Shown here: piece by piece, positions 5,473-64,000 of the stretch
Layout: every line of letters begins with the position of its first letter
Numbering within the stretch: the first letter of the stretch is position 1
Assembly: GCF_003334405.1 (NCBI RefSeq)
Contig: NZ_QOWM01000011.1
From: Escherichia coli
Lineage (GTDB): Bacteria; Pseudomonadota; Gammaproteobacteria; Enterobacterales; Enterobacteriaceae
Length of the DNA stretch: 64,000 nucleotides
Strand: one strand, 5' to 3'
The notes under the pieces: generated by a model
What the model was told of the DNA's origin: nothing
Databases searched by the model: none
What the model saw: only the letters and a program-made list of their open reading frames with translations
Program-made: the position numbers and the translations under genes

Positions 5473-6114
5473 TCAGCGATACAAGCCTTGTTGGTTAATG
5501 TAAGTCAGTACCGGTTCCGGCAATAAATCCTCACATGATTCACCGTTTTGCAAACGTTCGCGGATGATGGTCGCCGAGATGTTAAACCACGGCGTTTCAG
5601 CCAGATAAATTTTACCGGCAGGCTGAAGGTGAAGATCTTCCGGGTTATGTGTCAAATGATCTTCCAGCCATTGCTGGTATTGCGGTTGCGCCATTTCAAG
5701 TGGGTAACCTGGACGCCGACAGACGATCAAATGTGCATTGTCGAGTATCGTTTCGTATTCGTACCAGGTCGGAAAGGTCAGCAGTGAATCCTGACCAATA
5801 ATAAACGCCAGCGGCACGTCCGGTCCTTGTTCCTGCCGCCACTCTTTCAGTGTTTGCGCAGTGTAAGAGGGGGCATTGCGCTTTAGCTCGCGTTCATCAA
5901 GAGTAAATAATGGCTTGTCGGCAATCGCCAGTTCAAGCATGTGTTTACGCTGCACGCTGTTCGCTTCCGGCTGGGGACGATGCGGAGGAACATTATTAGG
6001 GATGATTGTGACCCGCGTCAGACCAATCAAATTCGCCAGCGTTTCCACGGGTTTTAGATGACCATAGTGCACCGGATCAAAGGTGCCGCCAAACAGAGCC
6101 TGTAAAGATTTCAT
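5473..6114 (-). CDS. nadD: Nicotinate-nucleotide adenylyltransferase
   Basis: ORF track 213 aa; [11 protein letters not shown] nucleotidyltransferase motif. Confidence 0.93.
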
Positions 6115-6115
6115 A

Positions 6116-7147
6116 TCAACCGTCGATAAATACGTCCGCCAGGGGTTTATGGCACAACAGAAGAGATAACCCTTCCAGCTCTGCCCACACTGACTGACCG
6201 TAATCTTGTTTGAGGGTGAGTTCCGTTCGTGTCAGGAGTTGCACGGCCTGACGTAACTGCGTCTGACTTAAGCGATTTAACGCCTCGCCCATCATGCCCC
6301 GGCGGTTCTGCCATACCCGATGCTTATCAAACAACGCACGCAGTGGCGTATGGGCAGACTGGCGTTTCAGGTTAACCAGTAACAACAGTTCACGTTGTAA
6401 TGTGCGCAACAAAATAACCGGTTCGCTGCCTTCCAGACGCAGTTGCTGAAGAATATGCAATGCGCGCTTACTTTTTCCCATCAACAAAGCATCAACCCAA
6501 TGAAAAGGGGTGAAATGCGCGGCATCATTCACCGCCTGTTCAACGCGCGGTAATGTCAATTTGCCGTCTGGCCAGAGCAGCGATAAACGCTCCAGTGCCT
6601 GAGCCAGCGCCAGCAGGTTACCTTCATAACAGTAGCAGAGCACCTGATTTGCCGCGTCATCCAGTTCTAAGTTGAGCTGTTTTGCGCGCGCAGCAACCCA
6701 GCGGGGAAGCTGAGCCTGCTCCGGTGTCTGACAGGTCACCTGCACGCTGCGATTCGCAAGCGCAGTAAACCAGGCGGCATTTTCTTGCGCTTTGCTTAAT
6801 TTATTACCGCGGACGATCAACAGCAGGTCGTCATGCAGAAGTCCGGTGAGTGTGAGAAGTTGCTCATTGATCGCCGCATTCGGTCCGTTTTCTGGTAACA
6901 ACAGCAATAGCGTTTGTCGACTGGCAAACAGACTCATAGCCTGGCATAACGAAAAGATCGCATTCCAGTCAGTGTTGGGATCAATGGAAAAAGTGTGGTG
7001 TTCTTCGAATCCTTGTGCCGCAGCTACCTGACGAACAGCGTCCTGGCTTTCCTGCAATAACAGAGGATCGTTACCAAGTAAAAGATACGCCGCGCGCAGC
7101 CCTTCATTGAGCTGCGCGCGGAGTTGTTCCGGGTACAACCGAATCAT
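6116..7147 (-). CDS. holA: DNA polymerase III delta subunit
   Basis: ORF track 343 aa, recognised HolA sequence; follows lptE with 1-nt overlap. Confidence 0.92.
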
Positions 7148-7728
7148 CAGTTACCCAGCGTGGTGGAGACGCGTGCAGGCGTTGCCGGAGTATCCGTTGT
7201 GGTCGACGTCTGTTCTTCGTCGGAACGAATATCCGCAGCACGGATGCTTGGCAGCTTACGAATCAGCTGTTCGGCAGCACGGTCGTACATCTCTTTTACG
7301 ATCATGTCTTGTTCGTTATCTTTCGCTAACGCCATTTGCGGGTTATCGAAGAACGAACGGAAGACTTTGGCGCTAATCGGGTAGATATCACGGCCGGGGA
7401 TCAACACGGTCGCATTAACCGTCATGATCATCTGATACTCTGCTGTTTGACCGTTACGGAATACCGATGCGGTATCTTTCGCGATGCTCACTTTACCCAA
7501 ACGCAAGGATGGAACGTCCTTACGCGTGGTTTCTTTATCAAGCAACTCGACACCATTCAGACGTAACTGGTTACGCACCGCACGGCTTAATGGCCCGTTC
7601 GGATCGCCTGAGTCCAGGATCATGACCTTCATAGTGGAAGGAACCTGCGTGGTATCACGCAGATGCCAGCCACACCCGGCGGTGATTAACACCGCCAGAG
7701 ATAACAACAATGTTGCCAGATATCGCAC
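7147..7728 (-). CDS. lptE: LPS-assembly lipoprotein LptE
   Basis: ORF track 193 aa; lipobox LITAGC near N-terminus; directly downstream of leuS. Confidence 0.93.
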
Positions 7729-7742
7729 GCTTCCTCCCGCGC

Positions 7743-10325
7743 TTAGCCAACGACCAGATTGAGGAGTTTACCTGGTACGTAAATCACTTTACGTACAGTA
7801 ACGCCATCAAGATATTTTGCTACCAGATGTTCCTGGCCAGCACGTTCGCGAACCTGTTCTTCCGTTGCGTCCACCGGAACGGTGATTTTGGCACGGACTT
7901 TACCGTTAACCTGCACCACGACCAGCGTGGAGTCTTCCACCATCGCTTTTTCGTCAGCAACCGGCCACGGCGCGTTGTCGATATCGCCTTCGCCTTTCAG
8001 TTCCTGCCACAGCGTGAAGCAGATGTGCGGGGTGAACGGGTTAAGCATACGGACAACGGCCAGCAGTGCTTCCTGCATCAGAGCGCGATCCTGCTCGCCA
8101 TCGGTTGGTGCTTTCGCCAGTTTGTTCATCAGCTCCATAATCGCCGCAATTGCGGTGTTGAAGGTCTGACGACGGCCGATATCATCGGTCACTTTAGCGA
8201 TCGTTTTATGCACATCGCGACGCAGCGCTTTCTGATTTTCAGTCAGCGCATCAACGTTCAGTGCCGCAACATCACCTTTTGCTGTGTGCTCGTAAACCAG
8301 TTTCCAGACACGTTTCAGGAAGCGGTTAGCCCCTTCCACACCGGATTCCTGCCATTCGAGAGTCATATCAGCCGGAGAAGCAAACATCATAAACAGACGA
8401 ACGGTGTCCGCGCCGTAACGTTCAACCATCACCTGCGGGTCGATACCGTTGTTCTTCGACTTGGACATTTTGCTCATGCCGGTATAAACCAGTTCATGGC
8501 CTGCCGCATCTTTCGCTTTCACGATACGGCCTTTCTCGTCACGTTCAACGATAGCATCAACCGGGGAAACCCAGTTACGTTCGCCGTTTTCGCCAACATA
8601 GTAGAAGGCATCTGCCAGCACCATACCCTGACACAGCAACTGTTTCGCTGGTTCGTCAGAGTTCACCATGCCTGCATCACGCATCAGTTTGTGGAAGAAG
8701 CGGAAGTAGAGCAGGTGCATAATGGCGTGTTCAATACCACCAATGTAGATATCCACCGGCAGCCAGTAGTTAGCCGCTTCGGAATCCAGCATACCTTCTT
8801 TGTACTGCGGGCAAGTGTAGCGCGCATAGTACCAGGAGGACTCCATAAAGGTGTCGAAAGTGTCGGTTTCACGCAGTGCTGGCATACCGTTAACGGTAGT
8901 TTTCGCCCACTCCGGATCTGCTTTAATCGGGCTGGTAATGCCGTCCATTACCACATCTTCCGGCAGGATCACCGGCAGCTGGTCGTCCGGGGTCGGCATT
9001 ACGGTACCGTCTTCCAGCGTCACCATCGGAATCGGCGCGCCCCAGTAACGCTGACGGGAAACACCCCAGTCGCGCAGGCGGTAGTTCACTTTACGCTCGC
9101 CAACGCCCATCGCAGTCAGTTTATCGGCGATGGCGTTGAAGGCCGCTTCATGGTCAAGACCGTTGAACTCGCCAGAGTTGAACAGCACGCCTTTTTCAGT
9201 CAGGGCTTGCTGAGAAAGATCTGGCTCAGAGCCGTCAGCTGCCAGGATAACCGGTTTGATGTTCAGGCCGTATTTAGAGGCAAACTCGTAGTCGCGCTGG
9301 TCGTGCCCCGGTACCGCCATAACTGCGCCCGTGCCGTACTCCATCAATACGAAGTTTGCTGCCCAAACGGGAATTTCTTCGCCCGTTAATGGGTGAACCG
9401 CTTTAAAGCCAGTATCGACGCCTTTTTTCTCCATCGTCGCCATTTCAGCTTCGGCAACTTTGGTGTTACGGCATTCGTCAATAAAGGCCGCCAGTTCAGG
9501 ATTATTTTCCGCCGCTTTCTGCGCCAGCGGATGACCCGCAGCTACCGCCAGGTAGGTACAACCCATAAAGGTGTCCGGGCGGGTAGTGTAAACGGTCAGC
9601 GTGTTGTCATAGTCGTTAACGTTGAAGGTGATCTCCACGCCTTCGGAACGACCGATCCAGTTACGCTGCATGGTTTTAACGGTGTCTGGCCAGTGATCCA
9701 GTTTATCCAGATCGTTGAGCAGCTCGTCAGCGTAAGCAGTGATTTTGATAAACCACTGCGGGATCTCTTTACGTTCAACTTTAGTATCGCAGCGCCAGCA
9801 GCAGCCGTCGATAACTTGTTCGTTCGCCAGTACGGTCTGGTCGTTCGGGCACCAGTTGACCGCAGAAGTCTTCTTATATACCAGGCCTTTTTTATACAGC
9901 TCGGTGAAGAATTTCTGTTCCCAACGGTAGTATTCCGGCGTACAGGTTGCCAGCTCGCGGCTCCAGTCATAACCAAAGCCCAGCATTTTGAGCTGGTTTT
10001 TCATATACGCGATGTTGTCGTACGTCCACGGTGCCGGAGCGGTGTTGTTTTTCACCGCCGCGCCTTCCGCAGGCAGACCAAACGCGTCCCAGCCGATCGG
10101 CTGCAGGACGTTTTTGCCCAGCATACGCTGGTAGCGGGCGATCACGTCACCGATGGTGTAGTTACGTACGTGGCCCATGTGTAGTCGACCAGAAGGATAG
10201 GGAAGCATAGACAGGCAGTAATACTTCTCTTTGCTCTCGTCTTCGGTTACTTCAAATGTGCGCTTCTCATCCCAATGAAGCTGTACTTTGGATTCTATCT
10301 CTTCCGGGCGGTATTGCTCTTGCAT
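7743..10325 (-). CDS. leuS: Leucyl-tRNA synthetase
   Basis: ORF track 7743..10466 (907 aa); HMGH and KMSKS class I motifs; start placed at internal Met ([15 protein letters not shown]) giving 860 aa, matching recalled LeuS length. Confidence 0.93.
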
Positions 10326-14393: not shown

Positions 14394-14948
14394 TTAATGT
14401 GCGGGAAGCCCGGCAAGTAATCTTTCCGCATTTTTGTAATGTTGTTTGGCGGCCAGTTTTAACCATTTTTGAGATTCATAATGGTTAACATTAATACCTG
14501 AGCCATTTCTGTAGATCAAACCTAAAGTATATTGAGCATGAGCATACCCTTGTTCAGCTGCTTCCTTATACCAGAGAATTGCTTTACGGGTGTCGGGTTT
14601 GACCCCCAGACCTTTGAGGTAGATCCACCCCAGTTTACTTTGCGCGCGTGGATTTTCCTGTTCCGCTGATTGCTCATACCAGTATCTCGCCTGTGTATAA
14701 TCCAGTGGTTTACCGTCGCTACCATGAAGATAAAATTCTCCAAGGCGATATTGCGACGTTGAGTGACCATGAATCGCGGAAAGCTCCGTGGCTGCCGTGG
14801 TGAATGGAAGACTGCCCGGTGAGCTTAAATAATCAAAGGCATAATTCACCATGGCTTTATCACGCAACGTCGTTTTCTTGGGTTGGCTAATACAGGTAAT
14901 TGCTGCAACTATAAAAATTGCGAATATATACATTAATTTTTTATTCAT
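14394..14948 (-). CDS. ybeT: Sel1-like repeat protein YbeT with N-terminal signal/possible lipoprotein signal
   Basis: ORF track 184 aa; N-terminus [19 protein letters not shown]...; Sel1-like repeats. Confidence 0.88.
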
Positions 14949-15049
14949 GTGTGAATGCTTCGATTTTCTTTTTATTTTGAAAGCGTCAAGTTTATACTCA
15001 TCAATAATAAAAAAGTAGTCAGTTAATGCACTTAAGGGATTATTAACAA

Positions 15050-15757
15050 ATGAATAAGGAAGAACAATATCTTCTTTTTGCGCTTTCTGCGCCCATGGAA
15101 ATACTTAATCAGGGTTGCAAACCCGCGCATGACTCGCCAAAAATGTATACTGGGATAAAAGAATTCGAGCTCTCATCATCCTGGGGAATAAATAATCGTG
15201 ATGATTTAATTCAGACTATTTATCAGATGACTGATGATGGTCATGCCAATGATTTAGCTGGCTTATATCTGACATGGCATCGCTCTTCCCCTGAAGAGTG
15301 GAAAGCATTAATTGCTGGTGGCTCGGAGAGAGGGTTGATTTATACCCAATTCGTTGCCCAAACCGCTATGTGCTGTGGGGAAGGGGGAATCAAAGCCTGG
15401 GATTATGTTCGAATGGGGTTTCTGTCACGGGTCGGTGTGCTCAACAAGTGGCTGACGGAAGAAGAGAGTTTATGGCTGCAATCGCGCGTCTATGTACGAG
15501 CTCACCATTACTATCACAGCTGGATGCACTATTTTTCCGCCTATTCGTTAGGACGTCTCTACTGGCAATCTTCTCAGTGCGAAGACAACACTTCGCTACG
15601 CGAGGCGCTAACCCTGTACAAATACGATAGCGCCGGGAGTCGTATGTTCGAAGAGCTGGCAGCGGGAAGCGATCGTTTCTATGCCACGCTTCCCTGGCAG
15701 CCATTAACTGTCCAGTCTGAATGCCCGGTAACGCTTAAGGATGTGAGCGACCTATGA
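15050..15757 (+). CDS. ybeU: DUF1266-family protein YbeU (paralog of YbeR)
   Basis: ORF track 235 aa; aligns along its length with YbeR; stop overlaps djlC start. Confidence 0.9.
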
Positions 15758-17205
15758 AAACATGTTGGCAAATCCTCGAAATTGAAAGCACGACGCAAAT
15801 AGACATTATCCGCCAGGCTTATCTTGCTCGCTTACCGTTGTGTCATCCCGAAACCGATCCGCAAGGGTTTAAAGCATTACGCCAGGCCTATGAAGAGGCC
15901 CTGCGACTGGCGGTAAATCCTGTCGAGGAAGCAGATGATGAAGAAAAAGATGCTGCCGCTGAACATGAAATACTACGTGCATTCAGGACATTACTGGATT
16001 CAGAAAGTGATCGTTTTCAGCCTTCCGCCTGGCAGAAATTTATTCAGCAATTAAATACCTGGAACATGGAGGATGTCGATCAATTACGCTGGCCGCTGTG
16101 TGCAATCGCCATAGAAGCGCGATATCTTTCATTAAATTGTGCTTCTTTGCTGGCAGAGCGTTTGAACTGGCATTCATTTAATGACAGCGAAGGAATGGAT
16201 GAGGAAGAAAGGGAGGCTTTTCTTGAGGCCATTCAGGCTGGTGATTGTTTCGATTTCCTTAGCCTTCTGGAATATCCCATTGCGTTGCAGAACCAGACTG
16301 TTGAGTATTACTTCGCGCTGGAACGTTGCTGCCGTTACCATCCTGACTATGTCACTGCGTTTTTGGCGATGGAAGGTCCGTGGTTAATTCCTGATGATGC
16401 AAAGTTACATCGCAAACTGTTGCGCTGGTACAGCTCGGTGCAAACAGGTATGGCGGAACTCATTCCTGTCGCTCAACAGTGGCAAACGGAAGAACCAGAA
16501 AGCGAAGATGCCCGGTATTACTTGTGTGCACAACGTTTGTACTGCGGCGAGGGGGAAAGCCTGCTTGCCGATCTCTGCGCGTACTGGGAAAGTTACCCAT
16601 CTACACAAGCTGATAATTTGTTGTTGCAGTGGAGCAAGCGTCATTGCCCGGATTATTTCGCGTTATTAGTGATGGTTATCGAAGCGCGGAGCATGGTAGA
16701 TGCGCAAGGTCAACCGCTGAAATATGTTCCTGGTGAGAGCGCCCGGACGCGGCTGTTATGGGCGGAGATTTTACATAGCGGAAAATTATCGCCGTTAGGT
16801 CAATCGTTTATTGAGTCGTTATTCTTCAAGCGCAAAGCATGGGCGTGGTGGAAATCGAGAGTCGGTAGCGAGACAGAGCAAGATTCACCGTTCCTGGATT
16901 TGTATCGGGTAGCGGAACAGGTAGTACTTGAAGCGTTTCCGAAACAAGAGATGCTGGCCCGTCTTAATACAAGGCTGGAAGGCGGAGATGCTCATCCATT
17001 AGAGGCCATTGTCACCCGGATGCTTTTGACGAAAGTGAAACTCGAGCCGGAGGATGAAGATGTCGATGAGCCAACACCTGAAAATCATGAAGAAAAAAAT
17101 GATGAGGGTGAAAAACCACAGAGCATTACCAGCATTATCAAAATCAGTTTAACGGTGCTGGTGATAGGTTATGCTCTCGGCAAAATCGCGATGTTGTTTA
17201 GCTGA
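15754..17205 (+). CDS. djlC: J-domain-like co-chaperone DjlC (YbeV) with C-terminal hydrophobic anchor
   Basis: ORF track 483 aa; N-terminus nearly identical in pattern to DjlB ([10 protein letters not shown]); C-terminal hydrophobic segment. Confidence 0.88.
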
Positions 17206-17226
17206 CGATGTGTTTTTTGCGCCGAT

Positions 17227-17257
17227 GCCGGATGCAGCGTTTACGCCGCATCCGGCA
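17227..17257. repeat. REP (repetitive extragenic palindrome) element
   Basis: gccggatgcagcgtttacgccgcatccggca imperfect palindrome between convergent djlC and hscC. Confidence 0.7.
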
Positions 17258-17264
17258 GCCGTGT

Positions 17265-18935
17265 TTATGGGATCTCAATGGCTAAATAATCGCTCGCCCG
17301 CCGCCGAACTTCATCCACGCGGGCCATATCGTTTGACTGCAACGCCGCATCAAAATCGGTGATCACCCGGCCGATCTCTTCTCGCTCGTCACCCAGCGCC
17401 CGCGCCCACAACTCTTCCAGTTTGGCTTTAAAGGTGCGATTGATGAGCATATCGCGCGGATAAATTTTCAATGCGGATAACCGCGTCCGACTCTCTTCAA
17501 TCTGCTGCGCGCTCAATGTTACCGGGCTGTGGTTAATCACTCTGGACTTAACGCTGCCGTCTTCCAGAAGCACGTCAACTTCAAGCAACCCGTTGATATC
17601 ATAACTAAAGCGAATATCAATCGACTGATAAGCCCCGGTTTTCTTCAACGGCACATCGAAGGATTCCACCAGAATGTTGTTTTTAACTTTGTGGTTTTCT
17701 CCCTGATAGACGTTAACCGTAATTGAATCCTGTTCCGGGTGCATGGTTGAATAAGTTTCTACACGCGACACGGGCACAGTGGTGTTTCGTTCAATAATCG
17801 GCGAGAAAATGCCGGAAACGCCCTGGCGGTTAACTTCAACGCCCAACGAGTAAGGGCAAATATCAGTGAGGATTACCTCTTCAATATCTTCACTGCGTAA
17901 GCGGCAGGCGGCCTGGATTGCTGCGCCCAGCGCGACAATGGTGCTCGGATCGTAACTTTGATACGGTAATTTGCCAAACAGACGCACGGCGATTCGCTGC
18001 ACCAGCGGCATTTGTGACGCGCCGCCAACCAGCACCAGACTGTCGATTTGACTCGGCTTCAGACGCGCATCGCGCAACGCCTGTTCAATCGGCACTCGCA
18101 AGCGATTGAGCAGCGGCAACCACAAATCTTCCAGTTCGTTCTCGTAAAATTCGCATTCCCGCGTTTCTTCCTGATACTGCCAGCGAATGTGCAATGGCGA
18201 TTGATTGCTACATTTTGCCGCTTCCACACAGGCGTACAAGGCTGCCAGTTCACTCTCGTTAAGCGTGGTCCTGGCGACATCCGCGCGTTTTAAAACCTCA
18301 TCGACCAGCATATGGGTAAAATCTTCGCCACCAAGAAAGTTGTCGCCAGCGGAGGCGTGAACTTCAATCACCGGCGTGGCGTACTCAAGCACCGTAACGT
18401 CAAACGTGCCGCCACCGAGATCAAACACCAGCGAACGGGTATTTTGTTGGGTATGCAGGCCATACGCCATCGCAGCTGCTGTGGGTTCATTAATTAAGCG
18501 TACCGCATTTAACCCGGCTAACTCCGCTGCTAAACGGGTATGCTTGCGTTGTTCATCGCTGAAATAAGCCGGAACGGAGATCACCACATCTTTAATCGGA
18601 CGTTGCAGAAATTCTTCGGCATCTTCTTTTAATGAGCGTAATACCAAAGAGGACAGTTCTGGCGCGTTAAATGTGTCGCTGCCTAACCGCCAGTTGGTAT
18701 TACTGCCCATTGCACGTTTAAATAACGCTGCCGTTTTATCCGGATGCGAAGTACGCCGTGATACAGCCGGTTTTCCGACTAAAATATGATTATTTTCATC
18801 CATGCTAATTATGGATGGTGTTAAATATTCACCGAACTTATTTGGAATTAATTGCGCGGCACCGTCTTTCCAGACGGCAATTAAACTATTGGTAGTACCG
18901 AGATCGATACCAATGGCGAGTTCTGCATTATCCAT
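17265..18935 (-). CDS. hscC: Hsp70-family chaperone HscC
   Basis: ORF track 556 aa; Hsp70 ATPase signatures (IGIDLGTTNS, DLGGGTFD); length matches HscC. Confidence 0.93.
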   Translation of the reverse strand: MDNAELAIGIDLGTTNSLIAVWKDGAAQLIPNKFGEYLTPSIISMDENNHILVGKPAVSRRTSHPDKTAALFKRAMGSNTNWRLGSDTFNAPELSSLVLRSLKEDAEEFLQRPIKDVVISVPAYFSDEQRKHTRLAAELAGLNAVRLINEPTAAAMAYGLHTQQNTRSLVFDLGGGTFDVTVLEYATPVIEVHASAGDNFLGGEDFTHMLVDEVLKRADVARTTLNESELAALYACVEAAKCSNQSPLHIRWQYQEETRECEFYENELEDLWLPLLNRLRVPIEQALRDARLKPSQIDSLVLVGGASQMPLVQRIAVRLFGKLPYQSYDPSTIVALGAAIQAACRLRSEDIEEVILTDICPYSLGVEVNRQGVSGIFSPIIERNTTVPVSRVETYSTMHPEQDSITVNVYQGENHKVKNNILVESFDVPLKKTGAYQSIDIRFSYDINGLLEVDVLLEDGSVKSRVINHSPVTLSAQQIEESRTRLSALKIYPRDMLINRTFKAKLEELWARALGDEREEIGRVITDFDAALQSNDMARVDEVRRRASDYLAIEIP

Positions 18936-21471: not shown

Positions 21472-22211
21472 TATTTGCCCCCCATGTTGCCAGGCAGGCG
21501 AACTTTACGTTCAACCAGCGTCATCACCAGCATGATAAAAGCGTTAATCAACACATACGCCAGCGTAATGGCGGTAAACGACTCCCAGGCATGGGCTGAG
21601 TAATCGAGCAATTTACCCGCCTGCGCCGCCATATCCACCAGACCGATAGTCGAGGCGATGGCGGAGTTTTTCACCAGGTTCATCATCTCTGAGGTCATCG
21701 GCGGGACGATAACGCGATAAGCATTAGGCAGCAGTACGTATCGATAAGCCTGCGGTAGCGTCAGGCCCATCGCCAGCGCGGCATTTTTTTGCCCTCGCGG
21801 CAGCGACTGAATCGCGGCGCGTACCTGTTCGCAAACACGGGCGGCGGTAAACAGCCCCAGGCAGAGCATGGATGAAAGGAAAAACTGAATATTGGGATCC
21901 AGCTCGGCCTTAAACCACATGCCGATTTTCTCCGGCAGCAGCTCCGGGATCACCAGATACCAGGTAAAGAATTGCACAATCAACGGCACGTTGCGGAACA
22001 GTTCGACATACAACGTACCCAGACCAGAGAGAAAACGGTTTGGAACGGTACGTAAAATGCCGAAAAATGAACCGACGAGGAAAGCGATAATCCAGGCGCA
22101 GATCGACAAAGCGATCGTCACCTGAAAACCACTCCAGATCCAACCAAGATAGGTGGTGTTGCCGAACGGGGCTTGTTGTAAAAAAATACCCCAGTTCCAG
22201 TCTATAGACAT
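21471..22211 (-). CDS. gltJ: Glutamate/aspartate ABC transporter permease
   Basis: ORF track 246 aa; 1-nt overlap with gltK. Confidence 0.92.
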
Positions 22212-22221
22212 AAATCTACTC

Positions 22222-22384
22222 CAGAAAAAAGAGGGTAGCAGCGTTAACTGCTACCCTCGAAGATTGTTACCCAGCGTATTGCGGTTTTCAGGCCCGATGG
22301 GGAACGACCATCAGGCGTATAGTCTGTCCGTGCTACGTAACAATCGAGAGGGCTGGAATTTCCGCCCCTGGTTCTTGTAATTAG
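22222..22384 (-). ncRNA. sroC: SroC-like sRNA from the gltI-gltJ spacer (3' end at intrinsic terminator hairpin)
   Basis: Hairpin gagggtagcag/ctgctaccctc (22231-22258) followed on the minus strand by a T6 run, just upstream of the gltJ start; location matches recalled SroC. Boundaries approximate. Confidence 0.5.
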
Positions 22385-23289
22385 TTCAGTGCCTTGTCAT
22401 TCGGTTCTTTGAACAGTGCTTTCATTTCGTCTGACAGTTCGAAATTCATGTTCAGGTTTTTCGGCGGAATTGGATTTTTGAACCACTTATCAAACCATTT
22501 TTCCGCTTCACCGGAGGTCTGCACCTGAGCGATGGTGTCATCCATCAGCTTTTTGAACTGCGGATCATCTTTACGCAACATACAACCGTAGGCCTCCTGA
22601 GACTGCGGCTTGCCGACGATTTCCCAGTTGTCTGGTTTCTTCGCTTTCGCACGTTCACCGGCCAGCAGAGCGTCATCCATCATAAAGGCAACGGCACGAC
22701 CGCTTTCCAGGGTGCGGAAAGAGTCACCGTGATCTTTGGCGCTGATGATGCGCATATTCATTTTTTGCTCTTCATTCAGTTTGTTGAGCAAAACTTCAGA
22801 GGTAGTGCCGGAAGTGACGACTACGGCTTTGTCTTTCAGGTTGGCAAAATCTTTGATATCGCCACCCTTTTTGGTCAACAGGCGCGTACCGACCACGAAA
22901 ATAGTGTCAGAGAAAGCCGCCTGTTTTTGGCGTTCGACGTTGTTGGTGGTAGAACCACATTCAAAATCGAAAGTGCCGTTTTGCAGCAGTGGAATACGGT
23001 TTTGTGAGGTAATCGGAATCAGTTTTACCTGCAAGTCCGGTTTGTTGAGTTTCTTTTTCACTGCTTCAACAATGGCGTTGGAGTAATCCTGCGAGTAACC
23101 CACCACTTTTTGCTGATTGTCGTAATAAGAGAAAGGCACTGAAGATTCACGGTGACCGACGACAATCACACCGTTTTTGGCGATTTTGTCCAGAGTACTG
23201 CCCGCTGCCGGGGCGGCGTCATCTGCCTGTGCCAGTCCTGCGGAAAGCGCCAGGGCGAGGATTGCTGTGGCAGGTTTACGTAATTGCAT
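22381..23289 (-). CDS. gltI: Glutamate/aspartate periplasmic binding protein
   Basis: ORF track 22381..23364; start placed at internal Met (MQLRKPATAILALALSAGLAQA, signal peptide) giving 302 aa. Confidence 0.9.
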   Translation of the reverse strand: MQLRKPATAILALALSAGLAQADDAAPAAGSTLDKIAKNGVIVVGHRESSVPFSYYDNQQKVVGYSQDYSNAIVEAVKKKLNKPDLQVKLIPITSQNRIPLLQNGTFDFECGSTTNNVERQKQAAFSDTIFVVGTRLLTKKGGDIKDFANLKDKAVVVTSGTTSEVLLNKLNEEQKMNMRIISAKDHGDSFRTLESGRAVAFMMDDALLAGERAKAKKPDNWEIVGKPQSQEAYGCMLRKDDPQFKKLMDDTIAQVQTSGEAEKWFDKWFKNPIPPKNLNMNFELSDEMKALFKEPNDKALN

Positions 23290-30772: not shown

Positions 30773-30847
30773 TGGCTGGGGTACGAGGATTCGAACCTCG
30801 GAATGCCGGAATCAGAATCCGGTGCCTTACCGCTTGGCGATACCCCA
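30773..30847 (-). tRNA. glnV: tRNA-Gln (anticodon CUG); glnV/glnX type
   Basis: 75 nt; revcomp TGGGGTATCGCCAAGCGGTAAGGCACCGGATTCTGATTCCGG...CCCCAGCCA; anticodon loop TTCTGAT. Only one CUG copy present, so glnV versus glnX is ambiguous. Confidence 0.93.
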
Positions 30848-30894
30848 ACAAATTGGTTTTGAATTTGCCGAACATATTCGACACATTCAGAATT

Positions 30895-30971
30895 TGGTGG
30901 CTACGACGGGATTCGAACCTGTGACCCCATCATTATGAGTGATGTGCTCTAACCAACTGAGCTACGTAGCC
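30895..30971 (-). tRNA. metU: tRNA-Met elongator (anticodon CAU)
   Basis: 77 nt; revcomp GGCTACGTAGCTCAGTTGGTTAGAGCACATCACTCATAATGATGGGGTCACAGGTTCGAATCCCGTCGTAGCCACCA. Confidence 0.93.
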
Positions 30972-30986
30972 AGATTGTTTCTTCGA

Positions 30987-31061
30987 TGGCTGGGGTACCT
31001 GGATTCGAACCAGGGAATGCCGGTATCAAAAACCGGTGCCTTACCGCTTGGCGATACCCCA
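30987..31061 (-). tRNA. glnU: tRNA-Gln (anticodon UUG); glnU/glnW type
   Basis: 75 nt; anticodon loop TTTTGAT in revcomp; only one UUG copy present, so glnU versus glnW is ambiguous. Confidence 0.93.
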
Positions 31062-31084
31062 TCCGTACAACGCTTTCTGGTGAA

Positions 31085-31169
31085 TGGTGCGGGAGGCGAG
31101 ACTTGAACTCGCACACCTTGCGGCGCCAGAACCTAAATCTGGTGCGTCTACCAATTTCGCCACTCCCGC
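31085..31169 (-). tRNA. leuW: tRNA-Leu (anticodon UAG)
   Basis: 85 nt with long variable arm; revcomp GCGGGAGTGGCGAAATTGGTAGACGCACCAGATTTAGGTTCTGG... Confidence 0.93.
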
Positions 31170-31178
31170 AAAAAAAGA

Positions 31179-31255
31179 TGGTGGCTACGACGGGATTCGA
31201 ACCTGTGACCCCATCATTATGAGTGATGTGCTCTAACCAACTGAGCTACGTAGCC
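31179..31255 (-). tRNA. metT: tRNA-Met elongator (anticodon CAU)
   Basis: 77 nt; identical in sequence to the tRNA at 30895..30971. Confidence 0.93.
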
Positions 31256-33546: not shown

Positions 33547-33646
33547 GCCGGATGCGGCGTGAACGCCTTATCCGGCCTACAAAAGCATGAAAATTCAATA
33601 TATTGCAGGAGCTGCGTAGGCCTGATAAGCGTAGCGCATCAGGCAG
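33547..33646. repeat. Composite REP-spacer-REP element (BIME/RIP-like), copy 1
   Basis: gccggatgcggcgtgaacgccttatccggcctac ... aatatattgcagg ... gtaggcctgataagcgtagcgcatcaggca; inverted orientation relative to copies at 41896 and 49386. Confidence 0.7.
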
Positions 33647-61180: not shown

Positions 61181-62854
61181 TCAGGAGAGATATTCCGCCA
61201 CCGGACCAAGCGCCAGGGCAGGGATAAAGGTCAGTGCGCCAACCAGCAACACGGTGCCGATTAACAGGCCAACAAACAGCGGGCCGTGCGTTGGCAGCGT
61301 GCCGGAGCTGGCGGCTTGGCTCTTTTTACTCACCAGCGAACCGGCAATTGCCATCACCGGGATAATCACCCCGAAGCGACCGACAAACATGCAGAACGCC
61401 AGTAAACAGTTCCAGAACGGAGAGTTGGCGCTTAATCCGGCAAAGGCGCTGCCGTTGTTGTTAGCGGCGGATGACACGGCGTACAGCACTTCGCTAAAAC
61501 CATGCGGGCCAGGGTTGAGCATGGCGCTACGTCCGGCGTCGGTCATCATCGCCAACGCCGCGCCCATCAGCACCAGCGTCGGGGTAACCAGAATTGCCAG
61601 TGCAGTCAGTTTCATCTCGCGTACGTCGATTTTTTTACCCAGATATTCCGGTGTACGACCAATCATCAGCCCGGCAATAAACACCGCCAGCAGGACAAAC
61701 AGCATCATGCCGTAAAGACCAGAACCGACACCGCCGAACACCACTTCACCAATTTGCATCAGCCACATCGGCACCATGCCACCGAGAGCGGTAAACGAAT
61801 CATGCATCGCAATCACCGCGCCACAGGAAGCCGCCGTCGTCACGACCGCAAACAGGCTACTGACCAGCACGCCGAAACGGCTCTCTTTACCTTCCATATT
61901 GATGCTGCTGTCCGTGCCCAGTGCCAGCAGATGAGGATTACCCTGAACTTCTGCCCACATCACCACGCCTACGCAGATGACAAAAATCACTGACATCGCC
62001 CACAGCAACATGCGCCCCTGGCGGCGATCGCCCGTCACTTCACCAAAGGCAAAGCACAGCGCCGTTGGGATCAAGAAGATCGCCAGCATCTGCACGAAGT
62101 TGGTCAGTGCGGTTGGGTTTTCAAACGGATGCGACGAGTTGGCATTAAAGAAGCCACCGCCGTTAGTACCGAGCATCTTGATCGCTTCCTGAGAAGCTAC
62201 AGGCCCCATGGGTAACAGCTGTTGCGCTCCTTCAACGGTATTCACAGCCTGATAAGGCAGAAAGTTTTGCAGCGCACCTTGTTGAATAAAAAACAGTGCA
62301 ATCAACAACGCCACAGGGACTAGCACCCATAACGTGATGCGTAGCAGATCGACCCAGGCATTCCCGAGCGTGCTCATGCTCTGGCGGGTAAACGCACGGA
62401 TGAGGGCAAAAATCACCGCAATCCCGCTGGCGGCAGAAAGAAAGTTTTGCACCGTTAAGCCCGCCATCTGGCTGAAATAGCTCAACGTGGTTTCACCGCT
62501 ATAAGATTGCCAGTTGGTATTGGTGACAAAGCTGACGGCGGTATTCAGCGCCAGATCCCACGACAGCCCTGGCAACTGCTGTGGATTAAGCGGCAGATAG
62601 TGCTGACCGAGCAACATAAAAAACAGCACCGCCAGCCCCAGCATGTTCAGGCCGAGAATGGCACAAAGATATTGCTTCCAGTTCATCTCACGGTCAGAGA
62701 CGCCAAGTGCGCGAAAAAGTACGCGCTCAACGCCCGTTGTACCGGGAAGAGGAATGTCATTAATCAGCCGCGCCAGCCCGCTGCCTAAAGGACGCGCCAG
62801 CACCATTAACACCAGTAAAAACGTGGCGATCAGTAAGAACCCTTGCGCAGCCAT
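61181..62854 (-). CDS. kdpA: K+-transporting ATPase channel subunit KdpA
   Basis: ORF track 61181..62998; start placed at [16 protein letters not shown] (557 aa); start codon overlaps the kdpF stop by 1 nt. Confidence 0.93.
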
Positions 62855-62943
62855 CAGAACGCCTCCGCATTGATCAGGGCATAAACCAGATAACCCAGTA
62901 ATAAAAACACCAGCAATACGCCGGTTATCACGCCTGCACTCAC
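62854..62943 (-). CDS. kdpF: KdpF small membrane peptide (29 aa, GTG start)
   Basis: Last 29 codons of ORF 62854..63057: [29 protein letters not shown] with GTG (cac at 62941-62943) as initiator. Confidence 0.75.
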
Positions 62944-63016
62944 AGTGCACCTCCAGTGGCCTAAAAGTGATACCGGAAGGGTAGAATTCTGGCTGCAAAG
63001 ATTTCGCAAAAATCTG

Positions 63017-63047
63017 CGGGCGGGGTGTAAAAAAAGTATAAAAATGG
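63017..63047 (-). promoter_or_regulatory. KdpE-binding site of the kdpFABC promoter
   Basis: Revcomp reads CCATTTTTATACTTTTTTTACACCCCGCCCG, matching the KdpE operator as I recall it; about 75 bp upstream of the kdpF start. Confidence 0.5.
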
Positions 63048-63255
63048 CAAAAGCCATGATTTAACTAATGTTTAGTATTAATTTAACTTTTGTGTAACTT
63101 AATTACAGGATGAATGTAAATAAACCATCAATAAGCAAAAATAAGTGGTCGGATGAGTAGTAAAATTACACAAAAGGCGGTACTATTTTCATCAGATAAA
63201 CAAATTCATTTTTCCGGTGCCATTCACCGGGTAGATACAAAAGGGGGAGAAAAGT

Positions 63256-63462
63256 ATGGAACTCTACAGAGAATATCCTGCATGGCTTATCTTTTTACGC
63301 CGTACTTATGCGGTTGCAGCGGGCGTTCTGGCGCTGCCTTTCATGCTTTTCTGGAAAGACCGCGCCCGCTTTTACAGCTACCTGCATCGCGTCTGGTCGA
63401 AAACCAGCGATAAACCGGTGTGGATGGATCAGGCCGAAAAGGCAACTGGTGATTTTTATTGA
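63256..63462 (+). CDS. ybfA: Small protein YbfA (DUF2517), hydrophobic central segment
   Basis: ORF track 68 aa [40 protein letters not shown]... Confidence 0.85.
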
Positions 63463-63484
63463 TTGCTGAGTTTTGAATACATTG

Positions 63485-63516
63485 AAAACCGCCAGCGGAA
63501 ACGCTGGCGGTTTTTT
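63485..63516 (+). terminator. Intrinsic terminator of ybfA
   Basis: Hairpin ccgccagcg-gaaa-cgctggcgg (63489-63510) followed by a T6 run. Confidence 0.75.
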
Positions 63517-63704
63517 GTATCAGGAAGATGTTCAGAGGAATATTTAGACATCGTTATACCAATCGAAACATATATTCATGAAATATATATAAATATTTTC
63601 CTAATTGTTCTTATCTGACAGATATCTCACTTAAGGCTTTCTTATAAATCTGTAGGGTTTCGCCTGTCAGCAGACAAATAACCCGATAAAACAAGGATGA
63701 GCAG

Positions 63705-64000
63705 ATGAGCGGAAAACCGGCGGCGCGTCAGGGCGACATGACGCAGTATGGCGGTAGCATTGTCCAGGGTTCAGCCGGGGTACGCATCGGTGCCCCCACC
63801 GGCGTGGCCTGTTCGGTGTGCCCCGGCGGGGTGACGTCCGGCCATCCGGTCAATCCGCTGCTCGGTGCAAAGGTCCTTCCCGGTGAAACCGACATCGCCC
63901 TGCCCGGCCCGCTGCCGTTCATTCTCTCCCGCACCTACAGCAGTTACCGGACAAAAACGCCCGCGCCGGTGGGGAGCCTCGGCCCCGGCTGGAAAATGCC
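63705..64000 (+). CDS. rhsC: Rhs-family protein, N-terminal 98 codons only (rhsC-like; continues past the window end)
   Basis: ATG at 63705 gives MSGKPAARQGDMTQYGGSIVQGSAGVRIGAPTGVACSVCPGGVTSGHPVNPLLGAKVLPGETDIALPGPLPF..., recognised conserved Rhs N-terminus; GC-rich relative to the AT-rich upstream spacer; absent from the ORF track because no stop lies in the window. Confidence 0.8.
   Translation, partial: MSGKPAARQGDMTQYGGSIVQGSAGVRIGAPTGVACSVCPGGVTSGHPVNPLLGAKVLPGETDIALPGPLPFILSRTYSSYRTKTPAPVGSLGPGWKM

What the first reader, a model, noticed from the sequence alone, without database searches (positions are those of the whole stretch)
63705..64000. Window ends inside the start of an Rhs element (polymorphic toxin locus)
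From 63705 a GC-rich ORF begins with the conserved Rhs N-terminus (MSGKPAARQGDMTQYGG...), preceded by a sharply AT-rich spacer (63520-63700). Rhs elements carry variable C-terminal toxin domains with downstream immunity genes and are hot spots for rearrangement. The informative variable part lies beyond this window.
Basis: partly seen in the sequence, partly recalled or inferred. Interest (0 to 1): 0.4.

Follow-up and report, generated by a model that had tools for sequence, protein, structure and literature searches.

The report
Start of E. coli rhsC gene
The last 486 bases of the window are the left end of the well-known RhsC element of Escherichia coli (an AT-rich leader plus the first 98 codons of a large toxin-delivery protein); this is an ordinary, already catalogued locus.

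Summary
An ATG at 63705 opens an ORF that runs to the window end: 98 codons, no stop, GC 0.68. It follows a stretch of GC 0.32. The 98 residues match positions 1-98 of NCBIfam RHS_core (E 4.6e-61). They are 100% identical to K-12 RhsA, RhsB and RhsC. The neighbours kdpFABC and ybfA identify the locus as rhsC.

Two refinements. First, the accessory element starts at 63515, directly after the ybfA terminator, not at 63705. About 1,700 of 5,426 complete E. coli genomes lose homology there and join ybfA directly to ybgA. The AT-rich "spacer" is therefore the element's own leader, and 63575-63704 is 87% identical to the rhsA leader. Second, the fragment encodes a single PAAR-like repeat (aa 2-29), an anchor peptide (aa 30-47), a predicted self-cleavage site H47|P48, and the first half of the DUF6531 plug. 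This matches the layout of Pseudomonas Tse5.

The toxin and immunity end lies outside the window and cannot be assigned. The source strain is not in the collection, and its three nearest relatives carry three different downstream states.

Verdict: already known, low interest.

The parts
62854..62943 (-). kdpF, first gene of the kdpFABC operon. Conserved chromosomal flank, not part of the Rhs element.
   Evidence: Annotation of the 100%-identical K-12 region, mapped with an offset of +50899.
63256..63462 (+). ybfA (68 aa, YbfA family). The conserved gene immediately left of the RhsC insertion site.
   Evidence: ORF list; annotation; present in 5,424 of 5,426 genomes.
63484..63516 (+). Intrinsic terminator hairpin of ybfA (stem of 14 predicted pairs, loop GAAA, then a T run). 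Marks the end of the conserved flank.
   Evidence: RNA fold of 63470-63525: -31.2 kcal/mol, z = -8.4. Conserved in the empty-site strain ESC53083 up to 63514. The simple terminator scan did not list it.
63515..63704 (+). AT-rich leader (GC 0.33), which is the left end of the RhsC accessory element. 63575-63704 is shared with the rhsA leader. Presumed promoter and regulatory region; the promoter is not located.
   Evidence: Homology to rhsC-less genomes stops at 63514-63520. 87% identity to the rhsA leader over 63575-63704, against about 41% to rhsB and rhsD. IS1 is inserted here in strain MB10. A sigma-E holoenzyme SELEX peak is reported in the ybfA-rhsC spacer of K-12 (PMC5493296). No sigma-70 consensus found.
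63693..63697 (+). Shine-Dalgarno sequence AAGGA, 7 nt before the ATG.
   Evidence: Read from the sequence. The GG core is invariant and AAGG(A/G) is kept at all four K-12 rhs genes.
63705..64000 (+). First 98 codons of rhsC (clade I Rhs core protein), cut off by the window end.
   Evidence: 98/98 identical to K-12 RhsA, RhsB and RhsC; 91/98 identical to RhsD.
63708..63791 (+). aa 2-29: a single PAAR-like repeat (SGKPAARQGDMTQYGGSIVQGSAGVRIG).
   Evidence: Aligns with the last repeat of four solved PAAR spike-tip proteins (9rce_c E 9e-4, 4jiv_D, 4jiw_D, 8gra_J). Pfam PAAR_motif and NCBIfam T6SS_PAAR_dom score only below threshold.
63792..63845 (+). aa 30-47: predicted anchor peptide that threads into the shell. 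It ends at the predicted N-terminal autocleavage site H47|P48 (63845|63846).
   Evidence: aa 48 aligns with residue 1 of the Tse5 shell chain 8cp6_B, and H47-P48 aligns with H304-P305 of P. protegens RhsA. Both cleavage sites were shown experimentally (PMC10684867; PMC8765631). P48-V-N-P is invariant in 21 homologues. Cleavage in RhsC itself is inferred.
63840..64000 (+). aa 46-98: first two thirds of the DUF6531 N-terminal plug domain of the Rhs shell.
   Evidence: Pfam PF20148, E 1.2e-12, model positions 1-47 of 74. Complete in the full-length relative (aa 46-123, E 2e-17).

Best explanation
The window ends 486 bp into the RhsC accessory element of an E. coli chromosome, which is inserted between ybfA and ybgA. 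The element begins at 63515 with a 190-bp AT-rich leader. At 63705 it opens the GC-rich rhsC core ORF.

By homology, the full protein is a polymorphic toxin carrier of about 1,400 aa. A 47-aa N-terminal piece carries one PAAR-like repeat, presumed to dock on a VgrG spike of a type VI secretion system. The same piece carries an anchor peptide and is cut off between H47 and P48, but stays bound. A DUF6531 plug and a YD-repeat cocoon enclose a variable C-terminal toxin. That toxin is released by an aspartyl autoprotease at the PxxxxDPxGL motif. A small downstream gene gives immunity.

Shown here: the identity of the locus, its boundaries, its composition and the domain content of the fragment. 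Inferred from solved homologues and from relatives: the cleavage, the encapsulation, the T6SS delivery and everything beyond base 64000.
For: Locus identity:
- 100% DNA identity over 62900-64000 to kdpF-ybfA-rhsC of K-12 and many other strains; 3,687 of 5,426 genomes hold this junction.
- Annotation of the K-12 region.

Family:
- RHS_core positions 1-98, E 4.6e-61 for the fragment; 2,682 bits (cut-off 2,000) for the syntenic full-length protein.
- DUF6531, about 12 RHS repeats and the RHS domain in the full-length relative.
- PISNIDPLGL at 1238-1247.

Element boundary:
- Empty-site comparison places the left junction at 63514/63515.
- Mosaic composition: leader 0.33, core 0.61, CT 0.41, ybfB 0.31 GC.

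N-terminal layout:
- Best solved relative is Tse5 (423 bits). Its shell chain starts exactly at the residue aligned with P48.
- Published cleavage sites are K47|P48 in Tse5 and H304|P305 in RhsA.
- The PAAR-repeat alignment covers aa 2-29.

Link to T6SS:
- Rhs genes whose first 97 aa are 85% identical lie directly downstream of vgrG, and in one case next to tssB, tssC, tssF and hcp.
Against: - The window stops at codon 98, so integrity of the ORF, the toxin type and the immunity gene in this strain are unknown.
- The exact source genome is not in the collection. The best matches differ by about 3 mismatches (estimated from bit scores) in the last 25 kb.
- The three nearest relatives differ downstream: intact K-12 type, IS5-family insertion in the toxin end, and an out-of-register fusion with the orphan fragment.
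- No vgrG or eagR is adjacent; the neighbours are ybfA and kdp.
- K-12 and B strains, which carry this same gene, have no T6SS (PMC6730261). Delivery is therefore unproven for this class of 'neighbourless' Rhs.
- The PAAR match is one repeat only and falls below the family thresholds.
- No promoter was found in the leader by the consensus scan.
Confidence: 0.9

Rival explanations
1. In the source strain the gene is a disrupted or rearranged rhsC. It could be interrupted by an IS element, truncated, or fused to the downstream orphan fragment. The window would then show the start of a pseudogene or a chimaera, not of a working K-12-type toxin.
For: Among the three closest genomes, ML35 has an ISKpn26 insertion that replaces the last residues of the toxin domain. 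BA92 has a 2.7-kb deletion joining rhsC codon ~668 out of register to the orphan core; it loses ybfB and about 280 aa of the shell. IS1 sits in the leader in MB10 and probably in XJ23PTE1. Only 2,536 genomes carry K-12-type RhsC-CT plus ybfB, against 3,687 with the 5' junction.
Against: The leader, ribosome-binding site and first 98 codons are intact and identical to functional-looking copies. The commonest state among genomes with this junction (about two thirds) is the intact K-12 arrangement.
Confidence: 0.3
2. RhsC acts without a type VI secretion system. It could be an intracellular toxin-antitoxin-like module driven by internal promoters, or be exported by another route. The conserved N-terminus would then not be a VgrG adaptor.
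For: K-12 and B strains keep intact rhsA-D although they lack T6SS (PMC6730261). The gene is 'neighbourless', with no vgrG or eagR nearby. A Salmonella study reports Rhs elements acting as type II toxin-antitoxin modules (PMC7043789, title and abstract). SELEX peaks for RpoH and RpoE holoenzyme fall inside rhsC just upstream of ybfB in K-12 (PMC5493296). Only one PAAR repeat is present.
Against: Homologues with an 85%-identical N-terminus sit directly after vgrG and beside T6SS core genes. The closest solved relative, Tse5, has the same 47-aa N-terminal layout and is a T6SS- and VgrG-dependent effector.
Confidence: 0.12
3. The ORF is a chance open frame in GC-rich DNA, or it belongs to another rhs copy (rhsA or rhsB) and not to rhsC.
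For: High-GC DNA has few stop codons. The 98 aa are identical in RhsA, RhsB and RhsC.
Against: E 4.6e-61 to RHS_core. The flanks kdpFABC and ybfA are those of rhsC; rhsA follows yibF, rhsB follows nikR and rhsD follows ybbP. The leader 63515-63574 is specific to this site.
Confidence: 0.01

Closest known systems
RhsC (b0700) of Escherichia coli K-12 MG1655 and the RhsC element (rhsC-ybfB-orphan rhs fragment-ybfC-ISAs1/H-rpt remnants)
   Same: DNA over 62900-64000 is 100% identical. It has the same flanks (kdpF, ybfA), the same leader and the same first 98 codons. This is the same gene at the same chromosomal site.
   Different: The source strain is not K-12. There are 3 mismatches in the last 13.1 kb, and the metT-operon array has 5 tRNA genes, not 7. 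What follows base 64000 in this strain is unknown.
Tse5 (PA2684) of Pseudomonas aeruginosa, a T6SS Rhs effector (PDB 8CP6)
   Same: Best solved relative (E 1.8e-125). It has the same layout: a ~47-aa N-terminal fragment with a PAAR-like element, cleavage before an invariant Pro-Val-Asn-Pro, a DUF6531 plug, a YD shell and a DPxG-x18/19-DPxG aspartyl protease motif.
   Different: The P1 residue is His, not Lys. The toxin domain is unrelated: K-12 RhsC-CT has 9 Cys, no hydrophobic segments and no Pfam or PDB match. Tse5 is encoded next to its vgrG; rhsC is not.
RhsA of Pseudomonas protegens (PDB 7Q97) and Rhs1 of Photorhabdus laumondii (PDB 7PQ5): prePAAR-TMD-PAAR Rhs effectors
   Same: Plug, shell and C-terminal autoprotease. 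The His-Pro N-terminal cleavage site of RhsA aligns with H47-P48.
   Different: Those proteins have N-terminal regions of 25-30 kDa with a prePAAR motif, transmembrane helices and a full PAAR domain, and they need an EagR chaperone. RhsC has only 47 residues before the cleavage site and no transmembrane segment.
vgrG-linked clade I Rhs of E. coli (RhsE/RhsG type, T6SS-2-cluster Rhs)
   Same: The first 97 aa are 85% identical, starting from residue 1.
   Different: Those genes lie immediately downstream of vgrG, and in one genome beside T6SS core genes. rhsC is 'neighbourless'.

Membership tests
Rhs core protein (NCBIfam NF041261 RHS_core; E. coli clade I Rhs) | Conserved N-terminal sequence of the core protein | tested here: met
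   Fragment matches model positions 1-98, E 4.6e-61, 206.9 bits. It is below the 2,000-bit whole-protein cut-off only because 98 of ~1,260 positions are in the window. The syntenic full-length protein scores 2,682 bits.
Rhs core protein (NCBIfam NF041261 RHS_core; E. coli clade I Rhs) | DUF6531 N-terminal plug domain | tested here: met
   PF20148, E 1.2e-12, aa 46-97, model positions 1-47 of 74, cut by the window end.
Rhs core protein (NCBIfam NF041261 RHS_core; E. coli clade I Rhs) | YD/RHS repeat shell | not testable with these tools
   Lies beyond base 64000. Present in syntenic relatives (12 significant RHS_repeat hits).
Rhs core protein (NCBIfam NF041261 RHS_core; E. coli clade I Rhs) | PxxxxDPxGL boundary and aspartyl autoprotease motif, followed by a variable toxin and an immunity gene | not testable with these tools
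   Beyond the window. In K-12, Z1323HEC0011 and ML35 the motif is PISNIDPLGL at 1238-1247, followed by a 150-aa CT and ybfB. The orphan-derived chimaera of BA92 has IDSMGL instead.
Rhs core protein (NCBIfam NF041261 RHS_core; E. coli clade I Rhs) | GC-rich core with AT-rich flanking parts, and multiple near-identical copies per genome | tested here: met
   ORF GC 0.676 against leader 0.326 and window mean 0.512. Median of 4 places per genome for the 5' end. 97.6% DNA identity to rhsA and rhsB.
PAAR domain (Pfam PF05488; NCBIfam NF033420) | Complete domain of about 90 aa with three PAAR repeats, scoring above the family threshold | tested here: not met
   Only aa 2-29 align, always to the last repeat. 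Pfam 15.1 bits (E 0.027); NCBIfam 16.4 bits against a cut-off of 124; PDB PAAR proteins E 9e-4 to 0.84. Best described as a single PAAR-like repeat.
PAAR domain (Pfam PF05488; NCBIfam NF033420) | Genetic linkage to vgrG or a T6SS | tested here: not met
   The neighbours are kdpFABC and ybfA. Linkage is seen only for homologues with an 85%-identical N-terminus.
prePAAR class of T6SS effectors (AARxxDxxxH motif, transmembrane domain, then PAAR) | AARxxDxxxH motif followed by transmembrane helices and a PAAR domain | tested here: not met
   The sequence is AARQGDMTQY, with Tyr in place of the Zn-binding His. The plug starts at aa 46-48, with no hydrophobic segment and no PAAR domain in between (motif definition from PMC8636562).
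Tse5-like short-N-terminus Rhs effectors | N-terminal fragment of ~47 aa, cleaved before a conserved Pro that starts the DUF6531 plug | tested here: inconclusive
   The alignment puts P48 on residue 1 of the cleaved Tse5 shell and on P305 of RhsA. P48 is invariant in 21 homologues. The cleavage itself needs protein chemistry.

The most novel reading that the evidence does not exclude
The 'neighbourless' clade I Rhs proteins (RhsA-D type) may have a function that does not need a type VI secretion system. They carry only one PAAR-like repeat and are kept intact even in E. coli lineages without a T6SS. Possible roles are an internally transcribed toxin/immunity addiction or stress module, or export by another route. 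Separately, the K-12-type RhsC-CT (150 aa, 9 Cys, no Pfam or PDB relative) together with the multi-pass membrane protein YbfB could be an undescribed envelope-acting toxin/immunity family. Both points concern the gene as a whole. The window holds only its first 98 codons.
Probability: 0.1. Interest if true: 0.5.

Novelty: already known. Interest (0 to 1): 0.07.

Why it matters
It does not change anything known. rhsC and the Rhs elements of E. coli have been described since the 1980s-90s and are annotated in thousands of genomes.

Practical value:
- **Repeat flag.** The window end lies in a multi-copy repeat (about 4 near-identical copies per genome). Mapping or assembly beyond this point is unreliable. 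Many database relatives of this N-terminus are likewise short or partial proteins.
- **Element boundary.** The true left edge of the accessory element is 63515. This gives a clean presence/absence marker: the ybfA-ybgA empty site against the RhsC insertion.
- **N-terminal module.** The fragment contains the whole presumed spike-adaptor and cleavage module, which is the least understood part of this class of Rhs proteins.

Tried and rejected
- **Promoter scan.** The sigma-70 promoter scan of 62900-64000 found nothing. The terminator scan missed the obvious ybfA hairpin, which folding confirmed. No promoter is claimed.
- **RNA families.** Rfam found nothing in the region at gathering threshold. 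At E<=1 it found only sub-threshold noise centred on the terminator.
- **Source genome.** I tried to identify the exact source genome in order to read what follows base 64000. The first 25 kb matches 12 strains perfectly, but the last 25 kb matches none; the best are about 3 mismatches away, and they are different strains. The downstream state therefore cannot be assigned.
- **Toxin and immunity proteins.** Pfam, NCBIfam and PDB searches of K-12-type RhsC-CT and Pfam and NCBIfam searches of YbfB gave no match, and NCBIfam gave none for YbfC. No toxin activity is proposed.
- **Homologue search.** The search with aa 1-130 listed only close enterobacterial relatives, most of them short or partial proteins. 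That gave no diversity for a useful structure prediction, so none was run. A 29-residue repeat would not give a meaningful fold search either.
- **Rejected readings.** Chance ORF, rhsA or rhsB identity, a full PAAR domain and a prePAAR effector were all considered and rejected (see rivals and membership tests).

Full report
**1. The observation**

The sequence at 63705 reads ATGAGCGGAAAACCGGCGGCGCGTCAGGGCGAC.... It stays open to the last base of the window (98 codons) and translates to MSGKPAARQGDMTQYGGSIVQGSAGVRIGAPTGVACSVCPGGVTSGHPVNPLLGAKVLPGETDIALPGPLPFILSRTYSSYRTKTPAPVGSLGPGWKM. An AAGGA Shine-Dalgarno sequence lies at 63693-63697, 7 nt upstream of the ATG.

Composition changes sharply at the ATG:
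- 63520-63700 has GC 0.32, within the lowest 1% of windows of that length in the 64 kb.
- 63705-64000 has GC 0.676, reached by 0.02% of windows, and GC3 of 0.77.
- The window mean is 0.51.

**2. What it is**

Identity of the locus:
- A megablast of 62900-64000 against 5,426 complete E. coli genomes gives 100% identity to the kdpF-ybfA-rhsC junction of K-12 MG1655 and many other strains.
- 3,687 genomes hold at least 80% of this query in one place. The median of 4 places per genome shows that the 5' end is a multi-copy repeat.
- In K-12 the annotated order is kdpE-D-C-B-A-F (minus strand), ybfA, rhsC, ybfB, an N-terminally truncated rhs fragment, ybfC, three ISAs1-family remnants, ybgA.

Family membership:
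- The 98 residues match positions 1-98 of the NCBIfam equivalog RHS_core (E 4.6e-61).
- Residues 46-97 match Pfam DUF6531 (E 1.2e-12).
- The syntenic full-length protein of the near-identical strain Z1323HEC0011 scores 2,682 bits against a 2,000-bit cut-off.
- That protein has DUF6531, about a dozen RHS repeats, the RHS domain and PISNIDPLGL at 1238-1247.

At protein level the fragment is identical to K-12 RhsA, RhsB and RhsC, and 91/98 identical to RhsD. Only the flanks make it rhsC: rhsA follows yibF, rhsB follows nikR and rhsD follows ybbP.

**3. Where the element really starts**

A search with 63200-63704 shows that 3,728 genomes cover the whole stretch. In about 1,700 genomes homology ends at query position 315-321, which is window 63514-63520.

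In one such strain (ESC53083), ybfA is followed after 100 bp by ybgA. Aligning this empty site places the left junction at 63514/63515, inside the T run of the ybfA terminator. It places the right junction at K-12 locus position 22174/22175. The ybfA terminator hairpin folds at -31.2 kcal/mol, z = -8.4. The RhsC element is therefore an insertion of about 9.56 kb.

The 190-bp AT-rich "spacer" is its own leader:
- 63575-63704 is 87% identical to the leader of rhsA, but only about 41% identical to those of rhsB and rhsD.
- This leader is a target for IS1 in strain MB10 and, from the same two-piece match pattern, probably in XJ23PTE1.

The element shows the classical mosaic composition: leader 0.33, core 0.61, toxin end 0.41, ybfB 0.31 GC.

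A third state of the same site exists. Strain AST85 carries small hypothetical genes and an annotated CDI immunity gene between ybfA and ybgA.

**4. What the 98 residues encode**

- **aa 2-29: one PAAR-like repeat.** The best PDB matches of residues 1-47 are four PAAR spike-tip proteins (9rce_c, 4jiv_D, 4jiw_D, 8gra_J). In every case aa 2-29 align with the last of their three repeats (best E 9e-4). Pfam and NCBIfam PAAR models give the same alignment but far below threshold. This is one PAAR-like repeat, not a PAAR domain.
- **aa 48 onward: the shell, starting at a cleavage site.** The best solved relative of the full-length protein is Pseudomonas aeruginosa Tse5 (E 1.8e-125). The deposited Tse5 shell chain begins exactly at the residue aligned with P48.
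- **Published cleavage sites.** The Tse5 paper shows self-cleavage between K47 and P48. It describes a 5-kDa N-terminal fragment with a PAAR-like element needed for secretion, whose last 18 residues are anchored inside the shell by the DUF6531 plug (PMC10684867). In P. protegens RhsA, cleavage is between H304 and P305 (PMC8765631), and these align with H47-P48 here.
- **Conservation.** In 21 enterobacterial homologues P48-V-N-P is invariant, while the preceding residue is H, N or S.

I therefore predict the following layout, by inference and not by demonstration for RhsC:
- spike adaptor at 63708-63791
- anchor peptide at 63792-63845
- cleavage at 63845|63846
- plug from 63840 onward

The prePAAR architecture (AARxxDxxxH, transmembrane helices, full PAAR; PMC8636562) is not present.

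**5. How it most likely works**

By homology with solved and tested Rhs effectors, the protein folds into a YD-repeat cocoon closed by the N-terminal plug and the C-terminal aspartyl protease. The cocoon encloses the C-terminal toxin. The protein is cut at both ends while remaining assembled, is mounted on a VgrG spike, and is fired by a T6SS into a neighbouring cell. The producer is protected by the downstream immunity protein.

Support for the VgrG link comes from two genomes. In both, Rhs genes whose first 97 aa are 85% identical lie directly after vgrG. In one of them they also lie beside tssB/C, tssF and hcp.

Against this:
- rhsC itself has no T6SS neighbours.
- K-12 and B strains carry it without any T6SS (PMC6730261).
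- An in-silico study of EHEC notes that it is unclear which VgrG, if any, carries RhsA-C (PMC7216683).

Transcription is unresolved. The consensus scan found no sigma-70 promoter. A genomic SELEX study lists a sigma-E holoenzyme site in the ybfA-rhsC spacer, and RpoH/RpoE sites inside rhsC just before ybfB (PMC5493296).

**6. What lies beyond the window**

The source strain is not in the collection. Twelve strains match the first 25 kb perfectly. The best matches to the last 25 kb have about 3 mismatches, estimated from the bit scores. K-12 has 3 mismatches in the last 13.1 kb.

The three best matches to the last 25 kb carry three different states:
- the K-12 arrangement (Z1323HEC0011)
- an ISKpn26 insertion that replaces the end of the toxin domain (ML35)
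- a 2.7-kb deletion that fuses rhsC codon ~668 out of register to the orphan fragment, removing ybfB and about 280 aa of shell (BA92)

.

Across the collection, the K-12-type toxin end plus ybfB is present in 2,536 genomes. That is about two thirds of the genomes that have the 5' junction.

That toxin end (150 aa, 9 Cys) has no Pfam, NCBIfam or PDB relative, and YbfB (108 aa, 3-4 hydrophobic segments) has no Pfam or NCBIfam match. Its activity is unknown, and I found no paper on it in the library.

**7. Comparison and verdict**

This is the known rhsC gene of E. coli. It is a clade I rhs gene in the scheme of Jackson et al. 2009 (PMC2935791) and a 'neighbourless' Rhs in the scheme of Ma et al. 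2017 as summarised in PMC6730261.

Nothing in the window departs from the catalogued locus. The useful additions are the exact left boundary of the element, the status of the AT-rich leader, and the reading of the first 47 residues as a Tse5-like adaptor/anchor module.

Novelty: already known. Interest: low.

Noticed in passing
window 30773-31255 (minus strand): The metT-operon tRNA array has 5 genes (Met-Leu-Gln(UUG)-Met-Gln(CUG)). K-12 MG1655 has 7, with two copies each of Gln-UUG and Gln-CUG. The source strain is therefore not K-12 and has the shorter array.
   Followed up: partly
L004 (E. coli BA92), locus 14762-18118; K-12 equivalents L001 14810 joined to 17507: rhsC is fused to the downstream orphan rhs fragment by a 2.7-kb deletion. 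The junction is out of register with the core homology. It gives a 1,118-aa protein that lacks about 280 aa of the YD shell, ends in the orphan toxin with a degenerate IDSMGL motif, and has lost ybfB.
   Followed up: partly
L002 (E. coli ML35), locus 6068-7048: An IS5-family element (ISKpn26) is inserted in the last part of the RhsC toxin-coding region. It replaces the final residues (…NDSLGKVRTSS*) and separates the toxin from ybfB.
   Followed up: no
L013 (E. coli MB10), locus ~985-1760, equivalent to the window leader 63515-63704: IS1 is inserted in the AT-rich leader between the ybfA terminator and the rhsC start codon. XJ23PTE1 shows the same two-piece match pattern. The effect on rhsC expression is unknown.
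   Followed up: partly
L009 (E. coli AST85), locus 6548-8485: This is a third state of the ybfA-ybgA site. It has no rhs gene, but four small hypothetical ORFs, an IS630 remnant and an annotated contact-dependent-inhibition immunity protein. It may be an immunity-gene islet left after loss of a toxin gene.
   Followed up: no
L001 16547-17325 (K-12 RhsC-CT and ybfB; outside the window): The K-12-type RhsC toxin end (150 aa, 9 cysteines, no hydrophobic segment) and its presumed immunity protein YbfB (108 aa, 3-4 membrane-spanning-like segments) have no Pfam or NCBIfam match, and the toxin end has no PDB sequence relative. No literature on them was found in the library.
   Followed up: partly
window 22223-22385 (minus) and 33581-33623 (plus): Rfam matches above gathering score to the sRNAs sroC (174.8 bits) and ES036/CssrF (41.1 bits). 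These are ordinary features of this chromosomal region.
   Followed up: no
L012 (GCA_046507415.1), whole locus: The T6SS-vgrG-rhs cluster in this assembly is broken into many short ORFs (tssF in 3 pieces, tssC in 4, vgrG in 2, rhs in several). This looks like frameshift errors of the assembly, not biology.
   Followed up: no
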